From positions 1 through 44,440 of the IMG/VR virus record IMGVR_UViG_3300012682_000003: DNA of 44,440 nucleotides. One strand, written 5' to 3'. A program made the position numbers and the translations under genes. Below the pieces are notes generated by a model. That model saw nothing but the letters and a program-made list of their open reading frames with translations, made no database searches and had not been told where the DNA came from. This DNA comes from a virus (lineage: Duplodnaviria > Caudoviricetes). Shown here in pieces: positions 26,924-43,689 of this stretch. Position 1 is the first letter of the stretch. Each line of letters opens with the position of its first letter.

Positions 26924-27280
26924 ATGCTAAGTTCCACGAAGGTAATTAAGAACCTGCTCACGTATGCAACGTTTCCAAACGATGAGTTGCAACACGCAGC
27001 AGAGGGTTTGGTTGCACAGTTGCAGGAAGATTTGAATTCAGTTGGATTTGAACCAAGTGGACCGTTTGAAAAGCTTATGTTCGCGGCCGAAAGTTTGATG
27101 AGTGAGGTCGATGCGGAAGATGATTCTTCAGTTGATGCGCTTGACGAAAATGATGATGAAGATGAAGATGACGACGACGACGATGATGAAGATGATGAAG
27201 ATGATGAAGATGAAGATGAAGATGATGACGAGGATGAGGATGAGGATGAGGATGATGCGCCAGCACAGGTAAACAAGTAA
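26924..27280 (+). CDS. Protein with a long Asp/Glu tract
   Basis: About 35 consecutive D/E residues encoded by mixed GAY/GAR codons. Confidence 0.75.
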   Translation: MLSSTKVIKNLLTYATFPNDELQHAAEGLVAQLQEDLNSVGFEPSGPFEKLMFAAESLMSEVDAEDDSSVDALDENDDEDEDDDDDDDEDDEDDEDEDEDDDEDEDEDEDDAPAQVNK

Positions 27281-27302
27281 GAGGAAATTAAAAGGAGTGA
27301 AT

Positions 27303-27758
27303 ATGAATAACATTGCAACGTTCAATAGTATTAACTTTCATGTAGCCACGCCGGACGGCGCGATGTTTGTTAATGTGATGGAAGATAAGGAAGGAAAACC
27401 GTTTAAGATTATTACTTCCATTGGTAAGTGTGGCACAGCAGTTGCAGCGTGGGCGCAAGCTTTTGATTTGGTTGCGTCTGAGACACTTGAAAATGGTGGG
27501 AGTGTAAATAAGCTAATTGAAATCCTGTCCGGTATTACATCTGCGGGTATCCGAATTCTTCCGGCCGGTGAAACAGTGCGCTCCGGTCCAGAAGGCGTTT
27601 GTCTTGCACTAATGCGTTATCGTCAATCGAAGTTTCAAGAGTTGAAGAACACTCTTGGTTTAATGTCTGATTTCAGTCGCAACAACGATAACGAAGATGA
27701 CGATGACGATGAGGATGAATATGATTTGGAGAATAGACCAGCAAGAGCGTTTCGGTAA
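27303..27758 (+). CDS. Stand-alone TSCPD/NrdJb-like domain protein (C-terminal domain of class II ribonucleotide reductase) with acidic tail
   Basis: TPDG.MFVNV..D..GKPF.I....GKCG......A......S..L..G.....LI..LSGI...RSGPEGV..AL; AAGGAG RBS. Confidence 0.75.
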   Translation: MNNIATFNSINFHVATPDGAMFVNVMEDKEGKPFKIITSIGKCGTAVAAWAQAFDLVASETLENGGSVNKLIEILSGITSAGIRILPAGETVRSGPEGVCLALMRYRQSKFQELKNTLGLMSDFSRNNDNEDDDDDEDEYDLENRPARAFR

Positions 27759-29510: not shown

Positions 29511-30470
29511 ATGGAATTAGAGCCAGTAATAAAGCAGGAGTTCATGAAAGAATTCCCGCGTTGCGAACCATTGATTAAAGATCACACCGCAATTCATGCG
29601 GCCAAGACTTGCTTTCGTAAATACTTCTATCAGATTGTGATTGGTCGAGTACCAAACAACGAAGCTATTTACTTTGCGTTTGGTTCCTCTTACCACAAGT
29701 TTCGTGAAGTTTTAGAGTTTGAGTATCTAGAGAAAACGAAAGGGATGGACAGTAAACAGAAGCGTGAGGCATTAAATGAAATAGGAGAGGCCGCCCTACT
29801 CATAGCCACGAATGCAGCAACTGCTACGTGGAAGCGTAAGACAAAAGGTAAAGACCCGGACGTGACTGATAAGTTTGGATTCATGACGGGATTGCGTCTT
29901 GTACAATCATGTATGACAGCTTATAAGTTTTGGCTTAACGAAAAGAAACTAGGTAAGATCGAAGTTCTTTCTGTTGAGCAGCCGTTTAACGTAATGTTTC
30001 CGGACGGCAGTTCTACTTCCGGTCGAGCAGATCAGATTGTACGTTGGAACGGACAGTTATGGGGCCGCGATTTCAAGACTACTTCTAAGGAAGGTAATTA
30101 TTATTCACGCGGTCTTGAACCAAACGATCAGTTCACACGTTACACATACGCCGAGTCGAAACTTTCGGGACAACGTGTGGAAGGCCAGATCATTGAGGTT
30201 CTCTACAACAGTAAGACAAAAGGCCCCATTATCAACACTTATCTATCAAGTAGGACAGAGAGTCAGATAAATAATTGGGTGAAAGAACAGATGCACTTCC
30301 TTAAGTTGTTAGAACTAAACAGGAAGGAAGATGTGTGGCCGATGGAAGAAGTTAACTGTCCATTCTGCCCGTATCACCAAGTGTGTAAGAAAGCAAACGA
30401 AGCCGCGATGATTAATGAATTGAAAGCGAATTACATTTATCGTCCGTGGGACAATACTAAGATAGATTAA
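29511..30470 (+). CDS. PD-(D/E)XK exonuclease, Cas4/RecB-like
   Basis: TCFRKY, FGSSYH, VEQPF, GRADQI, DFKTT, QFTRY and C-terminal CPFCPYHQVC (Fe-S staple pattern). Confidence 0.88.
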   Translation: MELEPVIKQEFMKEFPRCEPLIKDHTAIHAAKTCFRKYFYQIVIGRVPNNEAIYFAFGSSYHKFREVLEFEYLEKTKGMDSKQKREALNEIGEAALLIATNAATATWKRKTKGKDPDVTDKFGFMTGLRLVQSCMTAYKFWLNEKKLGKIEVLSVEQPFNVMFPDGSSTSGRADQIVRWNGQLWGRDFKTTSKEGNYYSRGLEPNDQFTRYTYAESKLSGQRVEGQIIEVLYNSKTKGPIINTYLSSRTESQINNWVKEQMHFLKLLELNRKEDVWPMEEVNCPFCPYHQVCKKANEAAMINELKANYIYRPWDNTKID

Positions 30471-30496
30471 CTTTCTTTTTAAGTTGAGAAGATGAA

Positions 30497-30763
30497 ATGC
30501 AAACGTATGCATCACTAACGAAAGAGTTGGGGGAGTTAGGGTTTCTTCCTGAAAGCTCATCTAATAATACGCTTTATAAGCGTGGTGATAGAAAGGTAAT
30601 GATTATAATTCCAGAAGGTGGTGGGCGAATGACCTTATGGGAGTATGATTTTGCTGATGTATTCGGTCACACATATCTTGAAGTTGCGCTCGATCAAGAC
30701 CTAAAGAAATACTTCGGTGTACTGAATGTGAACACACAGAATGACGGTTCTCCTGACGAGTGA
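30497..30763 (+). CDS. Hypothetical protein
   Basis: 88-aa ORF in the operon. Confidence 0.6.
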   Translation: MQTYASLTKELGELGFLPESSSNNTLYKRGDRKVMIIIPEGGGRMTLWEYDFADVFGHTYLEVALDQDLKKYFGVLNVNTQNDGSPDE

Positions 30764-30772
30764 GAAAAGAAG

Positions 30773-31654
30773 ATGAATAACTTTGAGATTAAAAACTTAA
30801 GTGACTTACAACCCGCCGAATCCCTCACCATTCTATTGTATGGTCAATTCGGTTCGGGTAAGACACAATTTATAGGAAGCGCCGGCTCGCGCACACTGAT
30901 TATTAATATCGGTTCCGGCATTGACACACTACACGGCAAAACTTTTAAAGACAAAAATCCAAACGTCGATCCTCTTATTATCACAATCAACGAGACATTA
31001 GACGAGAACGGACAATTTGATACAGCGGAAGCATTTGACGCAGTAACAGACGCAATTGATTTCGCATTAAAGAATCATCATGATAAATTCGACACAATCG
31101 CGATAGATGATATTACAGCCCTGCGGGGTTTCGCCATGAACAAAGGACTGGAGCTTAATCAAAAGACAAAGAAATCACAAACGAACGCACAGCGGAAAGA
31201 TTATGGTGCCACGCTTCCGGCTGTACAAGACTATGGTACCGAAATGAGTTTGATTGAATGGTTCATTAAGACTTACACGAACCTATGTAAGCGCGAGAAG
31301 AAACATTTAATCATGACCGCACATGAAAGGCAACAGTTTAAGAAGGCGGATAAGATTGGCGAACAGCCGTCACTATTTAAAATCCGCCCCGGTTTTACCG
31401 GACAAACTTTCCCTGACGATATGTGCGCGCATTTCGATTTCGTATGGCACGCAGAAATTGCAGGTGGTGGTGGACAAATTGTATATCGTGTGCGTACAGT
31501 TGGTGATGAAGTTATCAGTGCGCGTACACGGTATGGCGGTATCTTTGATCTACTCGAAAAGGATTTGAGTTTCTCGAAGGTACTATCTAAAATTCAAACC
31601 TACACCCTATCTCAGAAACCAGTTCCGAAAATCGTAGCAGCTGTTGTAAAGTAA
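30773..31654 (+). CDS. Sak4-like AAA_24 ATPase (single-strand annealing recombinase)
   Basis: LLYGQFGSGKT, TIAIDDIT, QDYG, LIMTAHE, FDFV and ARTR; flanked by exonuclease and SSB. Confidence 0.85.
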   Translation: MNNFEIKNLSDLQPAESLTILLYGQFGSGKTQFIGSAGSRTLIINIGSGIDTLHGKTFKDKNPNVDPLIITINETLDENGQFDTAEAFDAVTDAIDFALKNHHDKFDTIAIDDITALRGFAMNKGLELNQKTKKSQTNAQRKDYGATLPAVQDYGTEMSLIEWFIKTYTNLCKREKKHLIMTAHERQQFKKADKIGEQPSLFKIRPGFTGQTFPDDMCAHFDFVWHAEIAGGGGQIVYRVRTVGDEVISARTRYGGIFDLLEKDLSFSKVLSKIQTYTLSQKPVPKIVAAVVK

Positions 31655-31708
31655 CCGTAGGAAAATATGCAGCTAAGAACAATCCATTTTCATAGAGAGA
31701 ACCGAACC

Positions 31709-32173
31709 ATGCCACGTTTCGAACACGATCCCGCTAATGTAGTTGCAACACTTGAAGTTCTTCCGAAGGATACGTACGAGTTTATTATCGGACAGCCCAA
31801 GTCTTTCTTTCGGCAGAATGCAAAGGGCGGAGATTCATACGGTATCCGTTATCCGTTGGTTGTAGCAGAAGGACCGATGAAAGATAAGAAGGTTTTGTTC
31901 TCTACTTATTTCCAGAGTGAAGGCGCGCAGGCGGTAGGTAAGCAGTTTCTTATGGCCGGTTATGGTTTCGGCCGTACGTCTGGTGATGAGAAAGTTTTCA
32001 ATCAACAGTATGCAGGTTCGGATTTTGGATTCGATACTGATACCGCAAGCGTTGGCGAAATGTACGCAGAGCTTCGTGGTAAGCGTATCGTTGGTGATCT
32101 TGATGTTCGCCTGAATGAAACGAATGGTGAGCAGCAGCAGGATTTCAAGGGATGGAAGCCTTTCGGCAAGTAA
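31709..32173 (+). CDS. Single-stranded DNA-binding protein (DUF669-like)
   Basis: LPKDTYEFII...VVAEGP...LRGK pattern; follows the Sak4-like gene; likely start MPRFEHD. Confidence 0.7.
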   Translation: MPRFEHDPANVVATLEVLPKDTYEFIIGQPKSFFRQNAKGGDSYGIRYPLVVAEGPMKDKKVLFSTYFQSEGAQAVGKQFLMAGYGFGRTSGDEKVFNQQYAGSDFGFDTDTASVGEMYAELRGKRIVGDLDVRLNETNGEQQQDFKGWKPFGK

Positions 32174-33053: not shown

Positions 33054-33360
33054 AATAAATGCTGAGACTCCCCACTACATTGTTGTATTTTCTAGTGGTG
33101 AGTTTCAACTTCGCATCGATGAACATGAATTGTATAGACTGCTCGATCTTATGTCTACTAAAGAACCAAAGCCATTAATAAAAGTTATCGACATATTCGA
33201 AACTTCAAATTGGATTCCGCATAATAAGATCGAAGCCATACTTGAAATCAACCCGGCATTACGAGAAGCCGCAGTAAGATTGAACACACAAATTAGTATG
33301 GCAATTGACACTACTGATACAGAAGTTCGTAAGCTTGAATCCAAAAAAGAGTGGGAATGA
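33043..33360 (+). CDS. Hypothetical protein
   Basis: Coupled ORF. Confidence 0.6.
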   Translation: MKNEINAETPHYIVVFSSGEFQLRIDEHELYRLLDLMSTKEPKPLIKVIDIFETSNWIPHNKIEAILEINPALREAAVRLNTQISMAIDTTDTEVRKLESKKEWE

Positions 33361-33361
33361 A

Positions 33362-33796
33362 ATGCTCCAGTTCTTAGGAAGGAAAGTTGCTATCACACCG
33401 ATCTTCGATCCCGATAAGATTGGAAGTCTTTACGTTCCCGATATTGCAAAGCAGCGTGTGGATCAAGGAATCGTAAAGTATATCGGGCCGGACGTAGTTG
33501 ATATCAAGCCACTAGATTATGTTATCTTCTCCGGCTATTCAGGTACGCAACTAAAGGTAGACGGCGAAGGTATGTTAATCGTATTGAACGAGGACTTTAT
33601 CGTTGCGCGAATTGACGACATACCTTTTACTACTGTTGATGGTTTGTACTTTCGTGATAGGGACCGTGGCTATTTTGGTGCTACTTATGAAGAAGCTATT
33701 AACGTTATATCGGCAGGTATCACGGCTGCTGATTGGCACAATCGCTTTAATGTTAAGGTTCCGAATCCAATTTTTGAAGGCACGAATAAGGAGTAA
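33362..33796 (+). CDS. GroES/Cpn10-like co-chaperonin with C-terminal extension
   Basis: LGRKVAI, GSLYVPDIAK, QGIVKYIGP, DYVIFSGYSGTQLKVDGE..LIVLNEDFIVA; start ATG 33362. Confidence 0.88.
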   Translation: MLQFLGRKVAITPIFDPDKIGSLYVPDIAKQRVDQGIVKYIGPDVVDIKPLDYVIFSGYSGTQLKVDGEGMLIVLNEDFIVARIDDIPFTTVDGLYFRDRDRGYFGATYEEAINVISAGITAADWHNRFNVKVPNPIFEGTNKE

Positions 33797-34029
33797 TGGG
33801 GATGGGAGAATATCATGATGATAATGTTAGAGGTATCTTTAGACACAAGCTACCGATAATCCCGGTTCCTGTTGACGCAATGTGTGATTACTGTGGCCGA
33901 TCACGAGAAGAATTTACAAAGCTACGAATGGTGGTGTTACAGTTACGCAAGACGCAAGTTATAATTTGTGTGATGTGTTCGCCATATCTCGCTGATGTAT
34001 TAAAGAAACTTGAACCCTCACATTTGTAA
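33796..34029 (+). CDS. Small C4 zinc-finger protein (ClpX-N-like)
   Basis: CDYCGRS...ICVMC; AAGGAG RBS. Confidence 0.6.
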   Translation: MGMGEYHDDNVRGIFRHKLPIIPVPVDAMCDYCGRSREEFTKLRMVVLQLRKTQVIICVMCSPYLADVLKKLEPSHL

Positions 34030-35767
34030 CGTGACGATATCAAATAGATATGTACCTGATTCCGGGCCAGAAGATTCACCAATCTTATTTGTAGGTGAAG
34101 CGCCCGGTGAGAATGAAGATGAACAGCTAATACCATTTGTCGGCGCGTCGGGTGATAAGTTAATTTCCTGTCTCGGCCGGAATGGTTTAGCGCGAGAAGA
34201 TGTAAGACTCGCAAACTTGTGTCACTATCGTCCGTTCGGGAATAAGTTTGAAACCTTACTTACTTCTACTCAACTGAAGAACGGTATTGATGAGTTACAT
34301 AAGTACATAGCAAGGACGAAACCGAATGTGATATGTGCAATGGGAGCTTATCCTCTCGAATATCTCACAGGTAAGAAAGGAATCACACGTTGGCGTGGCT
34401 CAATCTTACCGTATGTAAACGACGCGAGTATAAAAGTAATCCCGACTTTCCATCCAGCTTACATACTCCGCAGTCCTACTGACTTTCCAATATTTGATTT
34501 CGATATTCGTCGAGTAATTGAAGATAGCAAGTTTCGTGAGTTCAAACTTCCCGAACGTGAATATGTTATTCTTGAAGCTGGACTGGAGATGGAAGAATGG
34601 ACACAGAAATTAGAGAACGCAGAGATACTAAGTGTGGACATAGAGAGTGTGAAGAAGTCAACTCATATTCTTTGTGTGGGTTTTTCGGCAGACCCGAAGG
34701 TGGGTGTATGTTATCCGATGGGTACTACCCAAGCACAGCAATCTATTGCCCGCTTGTTATCGAGCCGAGCACGGAAGGTTTTTCAGTTTGGTACGTTCGA
34801 TACGATAATGCTAAGTCTGAATGGTTTCAACACGGAGAACTACAGTTTCGATACGCTTCTAGCGCAACACGTTATGAACCCGGAATTACCGCGTTCTCTA
34901 GGATTCTTAACCTCAATATACACTCGTCAGCCTTACTACAAGAGCGAAGGGCGTGGAAGTATTCCCGGGGATGTAAAATCGTGGAGTGCAAAGGCAAACC
35001 GCCGCGAATTGTACGAATACAATTGTAAGGATGTTTGTGTTACGTTAGAGATTGCATTAGAGCAAGAGAAGGAAATTAATAGTGATCCCGATTGGACTAG
35101 GTTATTCAAGTTTGAAATGGAACAAACTGAACTCGTAAAAGAAATGGCATTGGCTGGACTGCCAGTTGATTTAGAGCGTCGTGAGATTATTGAATTGCTA
35201 CTGTTGGAGAAGTGGCAGAAGAAACAATTCGCACTCGATCGTCTTACCGGATATGAAACTAATGTCAACAGTCCGAAGCTTAAAGATATCTTGTATGATA
35301 AGTTGAAGTTTCCTCCGCGACGTAATCGTGACGCAGGACTGACGACTGATGAAGATGCAATCGTTTCGCTTATTACATATTGCAAGTCTCATCTTGAAAC
35401 ATTGAAGCGTCCCGATGCAATTCTCGACTGGCAAGTTAAGTCTGCAATCCTTTCAACGATCCTAGAAATCCGTGGTATCCGTAAGCTACTGTCCACGTAC
35501 ATTAAGGCAAAGATATTTGAGCCGACAGGTAGGTTACATTCCACACCTAAGATTGGCGGAACAGAAACGGCGCGCTATAGTTTCTCGCAGTTTGTAGACA
35601 AGTCGGGATTGAACGCGCAAACTTTTCCGCGTGAAGTTCTTGAAGTCTCAGATGATTTCATCGCATACGCACAACAGCATAGAATTAATTTGAGCGAGTT
35701 GAGTAAAGCCGCAGAAATTGATGCGCTTAAGGAACAAAATCTTGATGAAGAAAATGAAGGGGAATGA
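34010..35767 (+). CDS. DNA polymerase A, N-terminal part: family-4 uracil-DNA-glycosylase-like domain + 3'-5' exonuclease + thumb
   Basis: UDG: VGEAPGENED, PFVGASG, TFHPAYILR. Exonuclease: VDIES, FD, DTLLAQH, YNCKD. Polymerase: NVNSPKL..LY, TTDEDA, R.IRKLLSTY, GRLH, TETARYS and NAQTFPR. Confidence 0.9.
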   Translation: MNPHICNVTISNRYVPDSGPEDSPILFVGEAPGENEDEQLIPFVGASGDKLISCLGRNGLAREDVRLANLCHYRPFGNKFETLLTSTQLKNGIDELHKYIARTKPNVICAMGAYPLEYLTGKKGITRWRGSILPYVNDASIKVIPTFHPAYILRSPTDFPIFDFDIRRVIEDSKFREFKLPEREYVILEAGLEMEEWTQKLENAEILSVDIESVKKSTHILCVGFSADPKVGVCYPMGTTQAQQSIARLLSSRARKVFQFGTFDTIMLSLNGFNTENYSFDTLLAQHVMNPELPRSLGFLTSIYTRQPYYKSEGRGSIPGDVKSWSAKANRRELYEYNCKDVCVTLEIALEQEKEINSDPDWTRLFKFEMEQTELVKEMALAGLPVDLERREIIELLLLEKWQKKQFALDRLTGYETNVNSPKLKDILYDKLKFPPRRNRDAGLTTDEDAIVSLITYCKSHLETLKRPDAILDWQVKSAILSTILEIRGIRKLLSTYIKAKIFEPTGRLHSTPKIGGTETARYSFSQFVDKSGLNAQTFPREVLEVSDDFIAYAQQHRINLSELSKAAEIDALKEQNLDEENEGE

Positions 35768-35770
35768 GAA

Positions 35771-36568
35771 ATGAAAATGCCCGTACGTTCTATTATCCGT
35801 GCGCCGAAAGGTAAGTTACTTATCGCGTGTGATTTATCGCAAGCAGAGAGTTGGATTGTTGCGTATCTAGCTGATGAGCGTAACATGAAGCAAGCATTAA
35901 TGTATAGTGACATTCATACAGAAACAGCAGCTAACGCATTGTTTCACATTCCAATGGATGAAGTCACAAAGGAAACACGTTACATTGGTAAGCGTTACAA
36001 TCACGCATCCGCATACCGTATGAAAGCAGAACGCGCTGCACAAGTTATTAATAAGGATAGTGATAAGCCACCTTTCGTCACCGTCACCCTATCCCAGTCT
36101 CGCGTCTTTTCAAAAGATTGGCATAGCTACTATAACTTGAAGAATTGGTGGGCAGAGATTGACGAGAAGATGAATCGCAATCGTACTATCGTAACATCAT
36201 ACGGACGCAAGCGTGTATTCTATGAAGCATACGGTCCTGAATTATTGAAGCAAGCTACTGCACATGAACCACAGTCAACAGTTGCAGATCATTTTAACGG
36301 TGCGCTCCAGCCGGGTAATGAAATCCCGGGCGGCCTTACCGAGATTTACAAGAAACTTGTCAAACCTTCTAACGGTGAAGTTCTTTTACTTAACCAAAGT
36401 CACGACTCTTGTATGTTAGAAGTCCCTTCTTCCTCAGCAAGAGACTTGGTATTGGAAGTTAAGAGTTTGCTATATCGTCCTGTTGTAGTGCGTGGTGAAA
36501 GTGTAATGATACCAGTGGATGCAGAAATGGGTGAGTGGTGGGGCGAGTTTGAGAAAGTGAAGTCCTAA
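35771..36568 (+). CDS. DNA polymerase A, C-terminal catalytic part (palm/fingers)
   Basis: Motif A DLSQAE, DIH, motif B RYIGKRYNHASAY, YGRKR, PQSTVAD and motif C HDS. Confidence 0.92.
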   Translation: MKMPVRSIIRAPKGKLLIACDLSQAESWIVAYLADERNMKQALMYSDIHTETAANALFHIPMDEVTKETRYIGKRYNHASAYRMKAERAAQVINKDSDKPPFVTVTLSQSRVFSKDWHSYYNLKNWWAEIDEKMNRNRTIVTSYGRKRVFYEAYGPELLKQATAHEPQSTVADHFNGALQPGNEIPGGLTEIYKKLVKPSNGEVLLLNQSHDSCMLEVPSSSARDLVLEVKSLLYRPVVVRGESVMIPVDAEMGEWWGEFEKVKS

Positions 36569-36583
36569 CTACAGCAGAGAAAT

Positions 36584-37774
36584 GTGATGAGAAAGTGTGA
36601 GAATTGGTTAAAGACATTTATGGACTGCAATCTTCCCCGTTCGGAGGCGCCAGAAAGTTTCATCCTCTGGACGGGATTGTTTACGATAGCAGCCGCTATA
36701 CGTAGGAAGGTTAAGATTCCTAAGTTAATGTTCGGATCGTGGGAAGCTAGTCCGAATATGTATATTATATTTGTAGCCCCACCCGGTAAAGCACGCAAGT
36801 CTACAACTGCTGGATACGCAGAAGAATTACTTGATGGGGTTCCAGTTGTTACCAAGGGTCCTACTATTGTAACACAAGCCGCTCTCCTCGACAGATTAAT
36901 TAAATCCGACGACGCATCTGTCTACTTAATCTCATCTGAATTTGCGTCATTGATATCGAAGTCGAAGTTAGAAATGTTCGAGTTCCTTACTGATATGTTC
37001 GATGGAAGGAAGTCTATTGAAGCTGCAACAATTAGTCGTGGTGTGGAGTTTGCTGATCGTCCATGTATTAATCTTCTCGCAGCAACTACTCCCGGTTGGA
37101 TTAGTGAAAACATGCCGGAGTCTGTAATTGGTGGCGGCTTTGCTTCTCGTGTCATATTCATCTTCGAAGATAAGGTTCGGCGCCGGCAACTATATTACAA
37201 TCACGTTGATTATGACGAAATTCTCCAGAAGCAAATGGACCTAACGGCCGACCTAGTACACATAGCCACGAATATAGAAGGCGAGTATGTGATTGAAAAG
37301 GAAGCACAAGACTTTATGGAAACGTGGTATCGTGAGAACGCAGAGTATGGTGGTGGTGCGGAATCATATAGACTTCATGGATATTTTGAGCGTCGTCCTG
37401 CGCACGCACATAAAGTTGCGATGTTATTTCACTTGACGTACTCAGATGAAATGGTATTGAACAAGACTGATTTCGAAACCGCCATTGGCTTTCTTGAATC
37501 AATCGAACCGCGTTTGTCAAACACGTTTAAGGCAGTAGGTAAGAATAAGTTCTCAGTTGATATGGACCACATCTTAAATTACATAACACAAAAAGGCCGA
37601 GTCCAGCGGCCAGAACTGCTTTCGCAATTCTATGCTAATGCTGAACCCGACCTTCTTGAACGTTTGATTAAAGGACTAATTGATATGGGCGAGGTTAGAG
37701 TTACTGTTGATACTTCAACGAATAATGTTTGGTACTCATCCACATCCATACCACCAAAACTTATTTCCCTTTGA
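36584..37774 (+). CDS. DUF3987/YfjI-like P-loop ATPase, putative replicative helicase with C-terminal winged helix
   Basis: SEAP..F..W, PNMYIIFVAPPGKARKST (Walker A), SSEF, LTDMFD, LLAATTP and GGFASR (Arg finger). Confidence 0.75.
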   Translation: MMRKCENWLKTFMDCNLPRSEAPESFILWTGLFTIAAAIRRKVKIPKLMFGSWEASPNMYIIFVAPPGKARKSTTAGYAEELLDGVPVVTKGPTIVTQAALLDRLIKSDDASVYLISSEFASLISKSKLEMFEFLTDMFDGRKSIEAATISRGVEFADRPCINLLAATTPGWISENMPESVIGGGFASRVIFIFEDKVRRRQLYYNHVDYDEILQKQMDLTADLVHIATNIEGEYVIEKEAQDFMETWYRENAEYGGGAESYRLHGYFERRPAHAHKVAMLFHLTYSDEMVLNKTDFETAIGFLESIEPRLSNTFKAVGKNKFSVDMDHILNYITQKGRVQRPELLSQFYANAEPDLLERLIKGLIDMGEVRVTVDTSTNNVWYSSTSIPPKLISL

Positions 37775-37776
37775 TA

Positions 37777-40700
37777 TTACTTCTTATCCAACCGTGGTCT
37801 GATACCTAACATATCATCAAGAGAACTTCTGTTCTTCTTATCAACCGGCATACCCGCAGCCGCAGTTACCGCAACTAAAGGATTGAAATTCCGATCCATT
37901 AGATCAAACATATCAGCAACTCCTTGCGCTGCGAAACTTCCGGGAACAAAGATACTACTTGCTCTACCATTATATATCGGAATCAATTGCTTTAAGGTTC
38001 TCAATCCTTTGTTCCGCTCATATTCCGAACCACTTGTGGTTTCACGAACGGCACCGTACAAGCCAACCATTACGCCGCCGGGAGCCATAAGTGCGCCGGG
38101 AGTAAGCATCCACTTATTGAAGTTGTATCCAAGTGCATTACCCGCAACTTTAAATGCACCTTGTGCAATAGCAAACCGTAACATACGCGCACCAATTTCT
38201 GCTTTCGTACCGCGCGTAAGATTCTGACGTACCATAGATGCTTGATGCACAGCCCACGTTCCAAACTGTCCTGCTAGTCTACCGAAATTTGTTTGCCAAC
38301 CTTCTGGATGATTAGCTGCGCCATACAATCCCGCAGTTTCAGCACCAGTATTACGAGCCAAGAATCTAGAAGCTTGGTCAATCTTATCTGCACCACCAGT
38401 ACGCAGAATTCTATCAAACTCCTCAGCAACAGGAAGTGAATACGAATCCAACTTGATTTCTTTGTATGCCTTAAACTTATCAATCTCACCTTTCGCAACA
38501 CGATTCAACAACTGTCCGGTGTGTGTCCACGTTTCAATGTATGCCGCACCGTGAGCGAACTTGTAAGCATCCTTTTGTAGTGAACCCTTAAAAGATGCTT
38601 CCATAAATGCAGTCATTCCTGTGGCGATCTTACCGGGAACTGCGCCGGGAACTGACAATTCTTCGAGCGTGAGCGTACCAATTTCTCCTGTGCGCTCTAA
38701 GTGATTAATGACTTCTATGTCACCCCAAAACTTCTGTGCTGTAATCATCCGCTTCTGACCAAAGCGAATAAAATAGTTTTGCAAGAACGATGTGTAGTCA
38801 CGAATCCCGGCCGACATTTTAAATCCTTGCGCCGCTGATTCATTAACCATCAGAATCCTAGTAATCGCACGATCACGAAAACTCTTTTCAACTGTGATCC
38901 CGAGATTCTTATGCAACTGATCTACGACACTCTCTACAAACCTAACACTCTCATCACCGTAACCACGCAACTCACCGAGATATGAGTCAACTCTTTTTTG
39001 TATTCCAACCCTCGCATTTTGATCAGTGACATTAGGTATCACCTTCCCGTTTTCATCCTTGATATCAGAACCATCCAATCCTTTCTTGTTACCAGTAACT
39101 TGTTCTTCGAGTGCCTTCTTCGCTTTATTCCACGTGGGATAAAAGTCACGTGTCTTGAAGCCAGCAGTTACATAACGCTCAAGTGATTTGAGTGGGTCCT
39201 TCTCATAAATATCAATTTCACCTGTACGAATCATATCAGAAACAAACTTCTCTTGTGCATCGGGCATTTGTGGCTTGCTCATCATCTTATGGAACAACGC
39301 TTTACTATCAAGATTTGTTTCGTACATCTTATAGTGTGCGACATAACCCATAAGCTGACGCGTATCCGAAAAGCCAAACTCAACAGCGGCTTCGTCATAA
39401 ATTTTCTTAATCATCCCCGCCGCGCGTAACTGTTCTGAATTCATCTTACGTGATGCCGCAAACTGTGAGCCAGTCATTTCCTTATTAGTAATCGCGCGCG
39501 CATACCTTGTGATACCGAGTAACGATATTTCCCCTACAGGAAGTTTGAGAACCTCACCCATCTGCCCAAATGCAACCTGTTCATCTGGCGTTAAACTAAA
39601 TTCTTGCTCGATTTGTGCGAGTGCTTCCTGCGCCTTAAGTTGTGTAGGATCAGGAAATTCTTCAGCATGATCCAACAACGCACGACGACGCTTAAACAAC
39701 TTAGTAACGTCAACTTGCGTGTCTGCCCAATTCTGCCCGAGCCGCTTCTCGTTATCAGTAAGACCACGACCCTTTGTAAACTGTGCTGCAATTTCTTCTG
39801 GACTCCGAGTTTCGATATACTCAGTAATCGTCACGCGATCTTCAACATTCATCTTACGTAAAATCTTATCTACTTCATGAATCTTATCCCGGTATGGCGC
39901 GAGTGCGGCAGTTACTTTACGATGTGCAACTTGTGTGGGTTCGTAGATTTGTGCAAAGAGTTTCGTACCCCACACATTATCCATCTGAATAAGCTGTTCA
40001 CGTAAAGAAGTAAACTTACCGCTCATTGCGTTCATTGCAGCAAACTTCTTTTCAACTGTAGACAGTGGTGAGAATTCATAAGGAACTTCAAATGGTCCAC
40101 GCTCATAACGACCGTCGCCCATAATATCCCCACCAATTCCGGGCGGCACTCCACCATTATTACCCATCAAGTCAGGACCAAACGCCTGTCCTGTTTTGTT
40201 AATAAACTCTTGTGCTTCCCTTACATTCTTGAAAGGTGTAGTATGCAAACGCTTGCCCGATTCCAAATCACGTACAGTTATGTTACCCGCCTCAGCAACT
40301 TCAAGATACATACGATTCGATGAAGCAGAACGTGCGAGTCTATCAGATGCGGGTTCCAAACTTTCTACTATCTTCTTCGATTCGTTATCAAGTAGTTCAG
40401 TAGATTCTTTAGCAAACTTCTCGTACAATAACTTCTCGTCTGGTTCAAGAACTGTGTTGAGAATCTTCTCGTGAAACTGACGCTCAAAGTTTGCTGCAAG
40501 TGATGGGATTTCTTGTGGCAAGAATCCACGCGACTCCGCAAACTTAGCTACTTCCTGTGCAAACGGAAGGTCAGTCATTTTTACTTCGTCGAACTTCACT
40601 TCGGTTTTGCTAAAGCCACGTGACGTTAGTGGATCACCAGCAGTAACACGAGCTGCTTTTTGGTCAGCATCTGTTAACTTAAAATAATCGTTACCATATT

Positions 40701-43689
40701 TATCTTTAGCAATTGCGGATAGAGCATCTATTATTTTATCTTCGTAAGCTTGATCCAATTCATCTAGCTTTCTATTTATTCTGTACTTTGCTTGGGCTTC
40801 TCCCGGTCCAGACTTTATTCCAGTTAGATCAACGTTATGTTTCTTTGCATAGTTTTGTACTTCTTCTGCAAATATCTCATCTTGCCAAACACCTTCTTCT
40901 TGCCGTAATTTACGTTCCTTATCGCGTGCTGAACTAAGTGCTTCTGTTTTATTTAGCTCAGTCGCATCTTCCGCAGTCTGCTTTGTGCGCGTAAGAAAAT
41001 CATCAAACATACGACGCAAGAACTTCTCCTTCGTAACCACAGGCAAATTAACTTCTACCTGCGCTTTAATATCAGCAATAGCGCCCTGTCTAAGATCGAC
41101 AATCTCGCCCCACACCACTTCATTTCCACCATATGAAGCTGGTTCAGTCTTATTATAAATGATTCCATCGTGTCCATTCTGGCGCATGACTTCAGCCAAC
41201 ACTAAATCCTGTAGTTGATAACCAGATTCATATGTTGTTGCACCAGAATTTGTACCTGTTAAACCGCCACCATAACCTTTACCTTTCTTAGAGCTATGCG
41301 TAACATTATTAGCCTCAATGAATTGCGCTTCTTGTTTGGCTGTAATACGCAATCCCGTCGTGCCGCTACGTATCATCTTAAGCATTTCGTAATGCGCACC
41401 TTGAGCGGCATCTACAACATATGGATTTTCAAACGCGAGCCGGTGAATAACGAGTGAGTTTATAGCACCTGCTTCTGTACGTCGTGTTGCTTTTGGATCA
41501 GCGTCGTACCCAACGCCAGTATGTTGCGGATTTGCAGCATAAAATCTTCCTGTCTTACTGATCGCACCGCTACCGCGCTGCTGACGTACACCAATAAATG
41601 TAATTGGCTGACCAGTTTTTGCTAACTTCATCGCCCTTTCATTTGCTTCTACAATAAAACCCTTAGCACCATACTTAAAGTTTTCTGTTTGTTCCTTAAT
41701 GTACAATCCTTTAAGTGTAAAGGGAGAATCCATAAGAACTTTCTCAGCATCCATTCCTTGCATTTGTAAACGACGTACATCTTCTCGCTTTACAGTTAGC
41801 CTCTTACCTGTCTCAAGCGAAGTAAGAAAAATAGGTCGTGGCTCACCCGTTTTATATCGTATATCAGGCGAACCCGGCGCACCGTGTGTATTTACAACAT
41901 ACCGCTTGCCTTCGTACGTCACTAGTTCATTTGGGATGAAACCAGTATCGCGGAAATTAGATCTTGCTTCACTAGGATCGCCACTAATACTTGTCTGCTT
42001 AAGTATTACATCAAACTTATCCGCTACCGAATCATAAAAAACTAGACCATATTCTTCAAAATTAACTGGTTGTGCTAATTCTGCTTCAGCAGCTATTATG
42101 TTACGCGCTGCATTATTATTTTGGTATTTTAGCTTTGGAATTTCAATCTCAATTATATCAGCTGGATCAGTAGCCTTTGACCAATCCGGCAAATTTTTGT
42201 CAGCTATAATTTTGCGAATTGCATGTTGCGTTTGACCTACCAAAGAACTTCTAGTTGGGTCTAACAAATCTAAGTTAGTAGCAAAACTTGGGCTCAGATA
42301 AGCTAATGCTAGATGATCGTCGTTATAAATAATAGAGTCTATAACATCAGCAAACTTTAGCTTGTAGCCATGATGAGTTAAATCAGCAAGTTGGCTTTCA
42401 TCAAGGAACTTTTTTATCTCTGGATCAGCTGTGTTAATTGGAGTAAGTTCACGTGGCCTACCACCAGCCATTTCTGCTTTTACAATTCTACTTTTAGTTA
42501 TGTTATCTTGCGCAACTTTAGCTTGGGCAATAACTTTCTGCTTTATGTTTGCCATTTCTTCTGCTGTAAGATCAGCAAGGATAACAGTCTTCGTTGGTTC
42601 TATTGTACCACTAAGTTCAAGTGACCCAGTAAAATCTTTAACAACTATATCCGTAAGATCGTCTGCGGTTTCAAGAATACCAACACGCTGAACAACATCA
42701 TGAAGCGTAACGTCATTCGTCGCTTGAATCTGGCGCATCAATCCAATGTCACGCGCCTGCTTTGAAATCATCTCAGGCATACCTACTACATTCTTCTTAC
42801 CCGTAATACGATCAATAGTCGTCGATCCAAACTGTCCCGAAACTTCCATCGCCGTACCAATCGGCGCAAACATGATTGATTCAATAAAAATATTCGGGAG
42901 AATATCTTCCGTGTTCGCGCCTGCAATTGCAGCACCAACTCCGCCACCAACAACACCACCCGCACTTCCAGCTACAACCTTGCGTGCAAATTCTCCCATT
43001 ATCGGACGCGCAGTAAGTAGCGCACGATCAGTAAACAATCCCGCGCCGGCGCCCGCAATAACATCATCAACAGAAGAAACGCCACGTATTGTACGTTGCG
43101 CGCCTAACATACTGGACACGCCCTTAGTAGCAAGAGCTTCCACACCAATAGACGCAATGAACCCTGCAAGTTCTTTCGATCGACGTGCGGAATCTTCTGG
43201 CGTTAATGCAATTGCATTTCCTTCGTCGTCAATTCTACCACCAAGTGACAACTCAAACGCATTACCGATTGTTAAATTTAAGATACCTGCACCCAACTGA
43301 TCGGCAACACCAAGAACACCAGCTTCTTTAACTCCTTCCCAAGCTTCGCCAACTACTTTCCCAAATCCCTGCGCCTTAACTTTCGTAAACATATTATTAA
43401 AATCTTCAAGCAGGATCGCAGCATGATCTGGACCCTTACCTTTCTGTGCCGCTTTCTGTACGGCGATACTCGCGAATACGTCACCGCTATTCTCGTCAAA
43501 CATTCTACCAAAATTCTGATAGAGGCGCTTAGCAGTTCCGAATGTTCCTAATGCTTTCGGCGCTTGTGAATCTGTGAGGGATATAAAATCATTCTTCGGA
43601 GCAACGGAAGCTGCGTCACTCCTTACTGGTGCAGGATTTTGCGTCAAGCTAAAAAAGTCTTGTGCTGGCGAAAGTGGCGGAGAAGTCAT
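37777..43689 (-). CDS. Large (1970 aa) internal virion/ejection protein, polyvalent type, with a probable ADP-ribosyltransferase-fold domain
   Basis: Last gene of the ejection cluster; Gly-rich hydrophobic N-terminal segments; ART-like motifs near 41090-41620; helical C-terminal half with QFG.W. Confidence 0.7.
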   Translation of the reverse strand: MTSPPLSPAQDFFSLTQNPAPVRSDAASVAPKNDFISLTDSQAPKALGTFGTAKRLYQNFGRMFDENSGDVFASIAVQKAAQKGKGPDHAAILLEDFNNMFTKVKAQGFGKVVGEAWEGVKEAGVLGVADQLGAGILNLTIGNAFELSLGGRIDDEGNAIALTPEDSARRSKELAGFIASIGVEALATKGVSSMLGAQRTIRGVSSVDDVIAGAGAGLFTDRALLTARPIMGEFARKVVAGSAGGVVGGGVGAAIAGANTEDILPNIFIESIMFAPIGTAMEVSGQFGSTTIDRITGKKNVVGMPEMISKQARDIGLMRQIQATNDVTLHDVVQRVGILETADDLTDIVVKDFTGSLELSGTIEPTKTVILADLTAEEMANIKQKVIAQAKVAQDNITKSRIVKAEMAGGRPRELTPINTADPEIKKFLDESQLADLTHHGYKLKFADVIDSIIYNDDHLALAYLSPSFATNLDLLDPTRSSLVGQTQHAIRKIIADKNLPDWSKATDPADIIEIEIPKLKYQNNNAARNIIAAEAELAQPVNFEEYGLVFYDSVADKFDVILKQTSISGDPSEARSNFRDTGFIPNELVTYEGKRYVVNTHGAPGSPDIRYKTGEPRPIFLTSLETGKRLTVKREDVRRLQMQGMDAEKVLMDSPFTLKGLYIKEQTENFKYGAKGFIVEANERAMKLAKTGQPITFIGVRQQRGSGAISKTGRFYAANPQHTGVGYDADPKATRRTEAGAINSLVIHRLAFENPYVVDAAQGAHYEMLKMIRSGTTGLRITAKQEAQFIEANNVTHSSKKGKGYGGGLTGTNSGATTYESGYQLQDLVLAEVMRQNGHDGIIYNKTEPASYGGNEVVWGEIVDLRQGAIADIKAQVEVNLPVVTKEKFLRRMFDDFLTRTKQTAEDATELNKTEALSSARDKERKLRQEEGVWQDEIFAEEVQNYAKKHNVDLTGIKSGPGEAQAKYRINRKLDELDQAYEDKIIDALSAIAKDKYGNDYFKLTDADQKAARVTAGDPLTSRGFSKTEVKFDEVKMTDLPFAQEVAKFAESRGFLPQEIPSLAANFERQFHEKILNTVLEPDEKLLYEKFAKESTELLDNESKKIVESLEPASDRLARSASSNRMYLEVAEAGNITVRDLESGKRLHTTPFKNVREAQEFINKTGQAFGPDLMGNNGGVPPGIGGDIMGDGRYERGPFEVPYEFSPLSTVEKKFAAMNAMSGKFTSLREQLIQMDNVWGTKLFAQIYEPTQVAHRKVTAALAPYRDKIHEVDKILRKMNVEDRVTITEYIETRSPEEIAAQFTKGRGLTDNEKRLGQNWADTQVDVTKLFKRRRALLDHAEEFPDPTQLKAQEALAQIEQEFSLTPDEQVAFGQMGEVLKLPVGEISLLGITRYARAITNKEMTGSQFAASRKMNSEQLRAAGMIKKIYDEAAVEFGFSDTRQLMGYVAHYKMYETNLDSKALFHKMMSKPQMPDAQEKFVSDMIRTGEIDIYEKDPLKSLERYVTAGFKTRDFYPTWNKAKKALEEQVTGNKKGLDGSDIKDENGKVIPNVTDQNARVGIQKRVDSYLGELRGYGDESVRFVESVVDQLHKNLGITVEKSFRDRAITRILMVNESAAQGFKMSAGIRDYTSFLQNYFIRFGQKRMITAQKFWGDIEVINHLERTGEIGTLTLEELSVPGAVPGKIATGMTAFMEASFKGSLQKDAYKFAHGAAYIETWTHTGQLLNRVAKGEIDKFKAYKEIKLDSYSLPVAEEFDRILRTGGADKIDQASRFLARNTGAETAGLYGAANHPEGWQTNFGRLAGQFGTWAVHQASMVRQNLTRGTKAEIGARMLRFAIAQGAFKVAGNALGYNFNKWMLTPGALMAPGGVMVGLYGAVRETTSGSEYERNKGLRTLKQLIPIYNGRASSIFVPGSFAAQGVADMFDLMDRNFNPLVAVTAAAGMPVDKKNRSSLDDMLGIRPRLDKK

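What the first reader, a model, noticed from the sequence alone, without database searches (positions are those of the whole stretch)
34010..36568. Family A DNA polymerase split into two in-frame genes: candidate two-subunit PolA
Seen: the break falls between the conserved NAQTFPR (NLQNIP equivalent, about 35612-35632) and VRSIIRAP...DLSQAE (motif A), which are only a few residues apart in single-chain PolA. Gene 1 instead continues for about 44 aa as a helical, acidic tail (...EQNLDEENEGE) and stops at TGA. GAA ATG follows in the same frame with its own AAGGGG RBS. All three catalytic motifs are in gene 2; UDG, exonuclease and thumb are in gene 1. No intein or intron signatures are visible. 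Inference: a natural heterodimeric polymerase whose new tail may mediate assembly or helicase/SSB contact. TGA readthrough to one ~850-aa chain, allowing regulated subunit ratios, is the alternative. This is the strongest candidate for an undescribed system in the window.
Basis: partly seen in the sequence, partly recalled or inferred. Interest (0 to 1): 0.8.

Follow-up and report, generated by a model that had tools for sequence, protein, structure and literature searches.

The report
Two-chain phage DNA polymerase, once re-fused
This complete uncultured phage genome, like many relatives, encodes its only DNA polymerase as two separate genes cut just before the catalytic centre; the two proteins likely snap together into one working enzyme, and one relative has apparently fused them back into a single chain, which suggests where they touch.

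Summary
The split is real and inherited. Gene 1 (UDG, 3'-5' exonuclease, thumb, motif 2) ends at TGA 35765-35767; gene 2 (motifs A, B, C) starts at 35771. All 30 fetched loci that hold both halves are cut at this site; 25 non-duplicate ones use three different stops and all three frames, most with unrelated small genes between the halves. Sequencing error, readthrough, intron and intein are therefore unlikely. Best reading (0.88): a two-chain UDG-PolA. Each cut end keeps a short conserved strand-like segment; a co-fold scores 0.89 against 0.00 for the best control (may reflect likeness to solved single-chain PolA). One single-chain relative nests inside the split clade (AU p 3.6e-5): a likely re-fusion that keeps both segments and drops the acidic tail. 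The tail is outside the confident interface and absent in three relatives, so it is probably not the assembly module. Not categorically new: phages MEP401/402 have a published split in the same linker (PMC10580990), and this scan noted such splits before on other DNA, probably including this clade. New variant; interest 0.45.

The parts
34010..35767 (+). Gene 1, N-terminal chain: UDG + 3'-5' exonuclease + thumb + palm motif 2 + tail (585 aa from TTG 34010; probable start GTG 34031, 578 aa)
34055..34483 (+). Family 4-like uracil-DNA glycosylase domain; GEAPG..E, F43, N69, HP..R kept in 94-96 of 96 aligned rows (A31 varies)
   Evidence: Pfam PF03167 E 7e-26; PDB 1l9g/1vk2 E 5e-21
34571..35071 (+). 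Proofreading exonuclease; D210, E212, D264, Y337, D341 invariant in 96 of 96 rows
35225..35632 (+). Thumb and first palm elements, ending in motif 2 (T520, R522, NAQTFPR)
35633..35653 (+). Conserved acidic, alternating-hydrophobic segment (consensus D-P-V/I-E-V/I): likely clasp strand of chain 1
   Evidence: in interface; equivalent to strand 536-540 of the P0121 model
35654..35764 (+). Variable acidic tail, not in the confident interface, absent in some relatives
35757..35762 (+). Shine-Dalgarno-like AAGGGG for gene 2, inside the last codons of gene 1
   Evidence: sequence
35765..35767 (+). TGA stop of gene 1
   Evidence: TGA ends 10 of 34 genes tallied in this genome
35771..36568 (+). Gene 2, catalytic chain (265 aa): motif A D21 (35831), motif B R70/K74/H78/Y82 (35978-36016), motif C HDS (36401-36409)
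35771..35794 (+). Basic N-terminal arm (consensus M-K-I-x-I/V-R-S-M): likely clasp strand of chain 2
   Evidence: residues 1-12 in interface; equivalent to strand 546-550 of the P0121 model
36584..37774 (+). Neighbouring DUF3987 primase/helicase-like gene; candidate partner, untested
   Evidence: same neighbour follows the single-chain polymerase of Mel-JY34

Best explanation
The phage makes its only DNA polymerase as two separately encoded proteins that likely assemble into one family A enzyme with uracil-excision, proofreading and polymerase sites. Shown: two genes, each with its own start and stop; the same cut across a large clade; intact catalytic residues in both halves. Inferred: chain 2 (fingers and catalytic palm) docks on chain 1 (UDG, exonuclease, thumb, first palm elements) through the old intramolecular surface (about 160-190 predicted contacts), and a new two-strand clasp, chain 1's D-P-V-E-V segment against chain 2's M-K-I-x-I-R arm, closes the cut. 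Likely history: a short loop between motif 2 and motif A grew a small hairpin (P0302-like), the gene was cut at the hairpin's turn, the free end of chain 1 later gained an acidic tail, unrelated small genes move in and out of the gap, and at least one lineage (P0121) fused the genes again. The acidic tail most likely works as a flexible contact for a basic surface of another replication protein or of the enzyme itself, not as the assembly module (weakly supported).
For:: 30 of 30 loci with both halves (of 40 fetched; the other 10 had no tblastn hit to gene 1, one of them, L003, being an unrelated PolA) have them in different ORFs, cut after motif 2; 25 non-duplicate loci, TGA 15, TAA 9, TAG 1; frame offsets 0/1/2 = 9/9/7; L045 is also split; 11 to 1154 nt between the stop and the conserved Arg; 120 of 120 listed hits to the gene 2 profile are 263-306 aa; 1 of 120 listed hits to the gene 1 profile holds motif A; catalytic residues invariant in 96 of 96 (exo) and 99 of 99 rows (motifs A, B, C); complete circular genome (123-nt terminal repeat), one motif A only; co-fold 0.89 against best control 0.00 (mark reached by 116 of 157 solved complexes and 2 of 215 mismatched pairs; runs agree in at least 96% of contacts; partner pLDDT at least 90), with chain 1 residues 539-548 and chain 2 residues 1-12 in the interface; the pass may come from likeness to solved single-chain PolA; single-chain P0121 is sister to split L038 (100*, 99*; both halves alone 98* and 96*), AU p 3.6e-5 against a split-only clade; its junction forms two strands (536-540, 546-550) around a short turn, pLDDT 91-93. 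L028, L035, L034 end 6-11 residues after motif 2, keeping only the strand.
Against: No expression, binding or activity data. The strand-to-strand pairing is inferred: the 25 best-resolved contact pairs listed are elsewhere (chain 2 residues 8-11 with chain 1 384-391 and 509; 205-208 with 378-385), and no coordinates were available. P0121 is one protein on one contig whose DNA I could not see, so a mis-assembly is not excluded. The order of events is weak: the branch that separates P0302 and P0320 from the split forms has support 84, and the C-half tree alone needs 5 changes, placing four more single chains (P0302, P0320, P0323, P0326) among split forms without starred support; several fissions or several re-fusions remain possible. 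'Split' labels of database proteins without DNA rest on their length and start only.
Confidence: 0.88

Rival explanations
1. Stop-codon readthrough of the TGA gives one ~850-aa chain, with regulated ratios.
For: In the window and L012 the two ORFs are in frame with one TGA between them.
Against: 23 of 25 non-duplicate loci have other frames, further stops or whole genes in the gap; 10 of 25 end in TAA or TAG. TGA ends 10 of 34 tallied genes here, two of them followed by TAA/TAG within one codon. No tRNA gene in the window. Gene 2 has its own SD-like site.
Confidence: 0.02
2. The gap is a self-splicing intron (the reading offered in print for MEP401/402) or the halves are joined by a split intein.
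For: PMC10580990 suggests an intron for a similar layout. True inteins occur in this clade's motif B (P0122, P0123; read from the sequence).
Against: Only 18 nt lie between stop and conserved Arg in the window, 11-17 nt in L012, L027, L028. No Rfam intron match in 12 sources (one tRNA only). None of 20 gap ORFs hits an endonuclease or Hint family; 4 hit DHH, DUF6378, DUF3310, DUF4031. The tail has no conserved Cys/Ser start and chain 2 has no His-Asn end before PolA sequence resumes.
Confidence: 0.03
3. The two chains are translated but work loosely or separately: chain 1 as a stand-alone repair enzyme (UDG plus exonuclease), chain 2 associating only transiently or with another partner.
For: Genes can lie over 1 kb apart (L015, L034); databases annotate chain 1 as uracil-DNA glycosylase.
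Against: Chain 1 keeps the thumb and motif 2 (T520, R522 invariant), which serve only polymerisation (established PolA structure, recalled); chain 2 lacks them. The re-fused relative and the co-fold point to the normal geometry.
Confidence: 0.05
4. Sequencing error or recent nonsense mutation (pseudogene).
For: Three bases between two in-frame ORFs look like a point change.
Against:: same cut in relatives at 41-60% identity, new conserved termini, intact active sites.
Confidence: 0.01

Closest known systems
Methylophilales (OM43) phages MEP401/MEP402, DNAP ORF13 + ORF15 with small ORF14 between (PMC10580990; passages seen; OP830906 read)
   Same: Family A polymerase in two genes, cut in the linker between motif 2 (NLQN) and motif A, with a small unrelated gene in the gap; shared by most related genomes.
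   Different: No UDG domain; 20% identity to gene 2; the cut lies about 11-15 residues later (IKTLFLSRYGE stays on chain 1, chain 2 starts 5 residues before the motif A Asp), no acidic tail, no clasp arm. The paper suggests an intron and does not test a two-chain enzyme. Likely an independent origin.
S-SBP1-like split T7-type PolA, exo | pol (Czernecki et al. 2023, PMC10201439; passages and section 32 seen)
   Same: Gene fission of a phage PolA with a predicted heterodimer.
   Different: That cut separates exonuclease from polymerase domain; here the polymerase domain itself is divided (thumb and motif 2 | motifs A-C).
Single-chain UDG-PolA (SPO1, SP-10, SP-15, N4-like cluster 17 in PMC10201439; Desulfofustis phage LS06-2018-MD01, Microcystis phage Mel-JY34, ctMlz233; phrog_17)
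   Same: UDG-exo-pol order; the three GenBank phages share gene neighbours (primase/DUF3987-like gene next, in two of them annotated so); His at the motif B discriminator position in LS06-2018-MD01 and in most distant single chains.
   Different: One ORF of 779-826 aa with a 2-9 residue linker; 27-29% identity.
Split PolB gp43A/gp43B of T4-like Aeromonas phages and Aeh1 nrdA 'genes in pieces' (recalled; named in scan notes, search found no paper)
   Same: An active site completed by two polypeptides.
   Different: Other enzyme families; the nrdA case holds a homing endonuclease in the gap, none found here.

Membership tests
Family A DNA polymerase | Motifs A (Asp), B (Arg, Lys, Tyr) and C (His-Asp) | tested here: met
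   D21, R70, K74, Y82, H211, D212 in 99 of 99 rows; Pfam PF00476
Family A DNA polymerase | Klenow-like fold | tested here: met
   Model of relative P0121 matches Klenow 1kfs E 3e-28 and Bacillus fragment TMt 0.8; tested on the relative, not on the window's chains
Family A DNA polymerase | Templated DNA synthesis | not testable with these tools
   needs an assay
UDG-PolA (Czernecki 2023) | [quoted passage not shown] | tested here: met
UDG-PolA (Czernecki 2023) | UDG catalytic motifs retained (active type, unlike N4-like) | tested here: met
   GE.PG..E, F, N, HP..R align with Thermotoga UDG and are kept in 94-96 of 96 rows; their catalytic role is recalled; the two cysteines visible in the Thermotoga alignment are not kept
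UDG-PolA (Czernecki 2023) | One polypeptide from UDG to motif C | tested here: not met
S-SBP1-like exo|pol split | Cut between exonuclease and polymerase domains | tested here: not met
   thumb and motif 2 lie in gene 1
MEP401-type split PolA | Cut between motif 2 and motif A | tested here: met
MEP401-type split PolA | Same cut point and same lineage | tested here: not met
   cut 11-15 residues apart, 20% identity, no UDG in MEP401
Group I/II intron-interrupted polA | Ribozyme core in the gap, with or without an endonuclease ORF | tested here: not met
   18-nt gap in the window; no Rfam match in 12 sources; 0 of 20 gap ORFs endonuclease
Split intein | Hint halves with Cys/Ser start and His-Asn/Cys end at the cut | tested here: not met
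   position profiles of tail and arm; no Pfam Hint hit in either gene
Recoded / readthrough TGA | TGA read as sense in the genome or conserved at the site | tested here: not met

The most novel reading that the evidence does not exclude
A natural, reversible split-polymerase design: a hairpin inserted in the motif 2/motif A loop was cut at its turn, so an acidic and a basic strand now clasp the two chains; the freed acidic tail became a new replisome contact, and the UDG-exonuclease-thumb chain can be made in its own amount and double as a repair and editing platform on which the small catalytic chain is loaded or exchanged. Lineage history would then show all stages: short loop, hairpin, cut, tail, re-fusion.
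Probability: 0.2. Interest if true: 0.7.

Novelty: new variant of a known kind. Interest (0 to 1): 0.45.

Why it matters
It shows that the PolA palm can be built from two chains and kept so across a large phage clade, and it gives a natural series (single chain, hairpin chain, split, re-fused) on which gene fission and fusion can be tested directly. Practical points: annotation pipelines label chain 1 as a lone uracil-DNA glycosylase, and polA marker surveys that need full-length genes miss the clade; a natural cut site with a built-in clasp is a ready template for conditional split polymerases; a His at the nucleotide-discriminating position of motif B with a seemingly active UDG is uncharacterised in the papers I saw.

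Tried and rejected
Readthrough, intron, split intein, homing-endonuclease insertion and sequencing error were tested and rejected (see rivals). Host: unresolved; two genome bins hold members (L045 in a Blastocatellia bin, 29.5-kb contig; L046 in a Nitrososphaerales bin, 3-kb contig), which may be binned phage contigs. Cluster look-ups gave no organism. Paper searches for His762 and gp43A/gp43B gave nothing relevant; 'split PolA' gave only PMC10201439 among 25 of 42 listed; PMC8775771 holds no 'split' (one passage seen). A search of earlier findings by sequence gave nothing. The frequent ...EEAA end of chain 1 (AA in 45 of 111 tails) was considered as a protease tag; in L002, L006 and others it overlaps the SD and ATGA start of the next gene, which may explain it, so no claim is made. 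A single origin of the split could not be shown. Rows dropped before the 25-locus tally: duplicates L004 (the window's own record), L005, L007, L036, L037, and L019 (near copy of L018 whose gene 1 ends in another frame). Trees used only rows with both halves long enough (28 rows; 39), quick method without the mixture model.

Full report
Observation. The window is a complete circular phage genome (123-nt terminal repeat; terminase, portal and capsid hits). Translation of 34010-36568 gives one frame with one internal TGA at 35765-35767, 44 residues after NAQTFPR, then GAA and ATG 35771. Gene 1 holds UDG, exonuclease and the first third of the PolA profile; gene 2 holds the rest. A Logan contig at depth 60 shows no difference over 35300-36200 (possibly the same sample). 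There is one motif A in the genome.

The cut is inherited. Three scans gave 40 loci. In 30 of them both halves were found by tblastn, and in 30 of 30 they lie in different ORFs, with gene 1 ending after motif 2 and gene 2 starting about 20 residues before the motif A Asp. After dropping six duplicates or near copies (the window itself counted once), 25 loci remain: TGA 15, TAA 9, TAG 1; frame offsets 9, 9, 7. The gap runs from 11 to 1154 nt; most loci carry one or more small ORFs with overlapping starts and stops. Of 20 gap ORFs scanned, 4 hit Pfam (DHH, DUF6378, DUF3310, DUF4031) and none is an endonuclease. Rfam found no intron in 12 sources. Protein searches agree: 120 of 120 listed hits to the gene 2 profile are 263-306 aa (783 hits in all), and 1 of 120 listed hits to the gene 1 profile carries motif A (395 hits in all). 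Only the window and L012 have an in-frame stop directly before gene 2, so readthrough cannot be the clade's mechanism.

Both halves are under selection. Exonuclease residues are invariant in 96 of 96 rows, motif A, B and C residues in 99 of 99, UDG motifs in 94-96 of 96. Motif B has His at the position of E. coli Phe762 (numbering recalled) in 120 of 120 proteins, followed by YR instead of YG in 119. Most relatives carry a Cys/His insertion in the fingers that the window lacks.

The cut ends. After motif 2, chain 1 keeps a conserved D-P-V/I-E-V/I segment, then a variable acidic tail (median 39 aa, median net charge -14 in 111 of 119 proteins where the motif was matched; D+E 0.39 against 0.13 in the body). 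Chain 2 begins M-K-I-x-I/V-R-S-M. Distant single chains join motif 2 to the IR element by 2-9 residues, so both segments are additions. Three split relatives (L028, L035, L034) end 6-11 residues after motif 2: they keep the segment and have no long acidic tail.

A re-fused relative. A search for longer proteins found one close single chain, P0121 (829 aa, 54% identity). Its junction keeps both segments, joined by a short turn, and has no acidic tail. With tail and arm columns left out, it is sister to split locus L038 (100*; 98* and 96* for each half alone; 99* in a larger set), and the AU test rejects a split-only clade (p 3.6e-5). Its AlphaFold2 model (mean pLDDT 95) has strands at 536-540 and 546-550, likely a hairpin, and matches Klenow-type structures. 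The wider search gave further single chains near the base: P0302 with a hairpin-length insert and P0320 with a short linker. In the two-half tree they fall just outside the split forms, at support 84; in the C-half tree they and P0323/P0326 fall among them without starred support. So P0121 as a re-fusion is well supported if its contig is right; 'hairpin first, one cut' is plausible but not shown.

Complex. The co-fold of the window's two chains scored 0.89 in three runs against 0.00 for the best of 3 controls; the mark was reached by 116 of 157 solved complexes and 2 of 215 mismatched pairs; runs agree in at least 96% of contacts and the partner's pLDDT is at least 90. Halves of a split gene tend to pass by likeness to solved structures, so this shows compatibility, not binding. 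In the model of chain 1 alone, 542-547 forms no strand and the tail is helical with confidence falling from 84 to 41.

Mechanism. Shown: two genes, conserved cut, intact motifs. Inferred: 1:1 heterodimer through the ancestral surface plus a charge-complementary two-strand clasp; polymerase activity needs both chains because thumb and motif 2 are on chain 1 (role of these elements recalled). Weakly inferred: the acidic tail is an optional contact site.

What is known. Czernecki et al. 2023 (PMC10201439; passages and section 32 seen) describe UDG-PolA fusions and an exo|pol fission as the first PolA split. PMC10580990 (passages seen; lead taken from scan notes, and listed already) reports two-ORF polymerases in MEP401/402 and suggests an intron; reading OP830906 shows that cut in the same linker, 11-15 residues later, in an unrelated polymerase without UDG. 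PHROG 2573 also matches gene 2 from profile position 4, a hint of other stand-alone catalytic chains that I did not follow. GenBank relatives with the same gene order are single-chain. Ten paper searches (listings only except the three papers named) found no description of this UDG-PolA clade, its clasp or its re-fusion; the library lacks most subscription papers and supplements were not read. The scan itself noted such splits before on other DNA (e1-9759269 probably this clade; e1-8003131, e1-3410634, e1-3424969); these notes are not evidence.

Verdict. Real feature, new variant of a known kind. Two-chain enzyme 0.88. Interest 0.45; the boldest reading (staged, reversible fission with a clasp and a tail of new function) has probability 0.2 and would merit 0.7.

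Noticed in passing
P0122, P0123: Two catalytic chains of this clade carry a ~290-aa insertion inside motif B, bounded by Cys at the start and Gly-Asn/Ser at the end: intein-like by sequence, though Pfam gave no Hint hit.
   Followed up: partly
window 35942-35977; alignment A4: Most relatives have a C-x-H...C-x-x-C insertion (possible zinc site) in the fingers between motifs A and B; the window is one of 3 of 120 proteins with no Cys there.
   Followed up: partly
window 36002-36004 (H78 of gene 2): His at the motif B discriminator position, with YR for YG, throughout the clade; His also in most distant single-chain UDG-PolAs. No paper found.
   Followed up: partly
window 26924-27280 (+): 118-aa protein with a run of about 40 Asp/Glu residues; possible DNA mimic or chaperone.
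   Followed up: no
window 29511-32173 (+): PD-(D/E)xK nuclease, Sak4-like AAA_24 annealing protein and a 168-aa protein of no family that may be an SSB but ends without an acidic tail, while the polymerase chain 1 has one.
   Followed up: no
window 33305-33796 (+): GroES/Cpn10-like protein; a similar gene lies upstream of the polymerase in L002 and L045.
   Followed up: no
window 27297-27758 (+): Stand-alone TSCPD domain protein.
   Followed up: no
window 37777-43689 (-): 1970-aa protein without Pfam or PHROG match, convergent on the replication module; similar large genes in L001, L002 and Mel-JY34; possibly an ejected virion protein.
   Followed up: no
L002:1210-2541, L045:716-2029: ParB-like domain fused to a DNA methyltransferase-like domain (read from the sequence) upstream of the polymerase in relatives, absent from the window.
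   Followed up: no
L046:890-2536: Downstream of the catalytic chain: MazG-like, ThyX-like and nucleotide-kinase/hydrolase-like genes (read from the sequence), hinting at dUTP/dTTP control beside the UDG-PolA.
   Followed up: no
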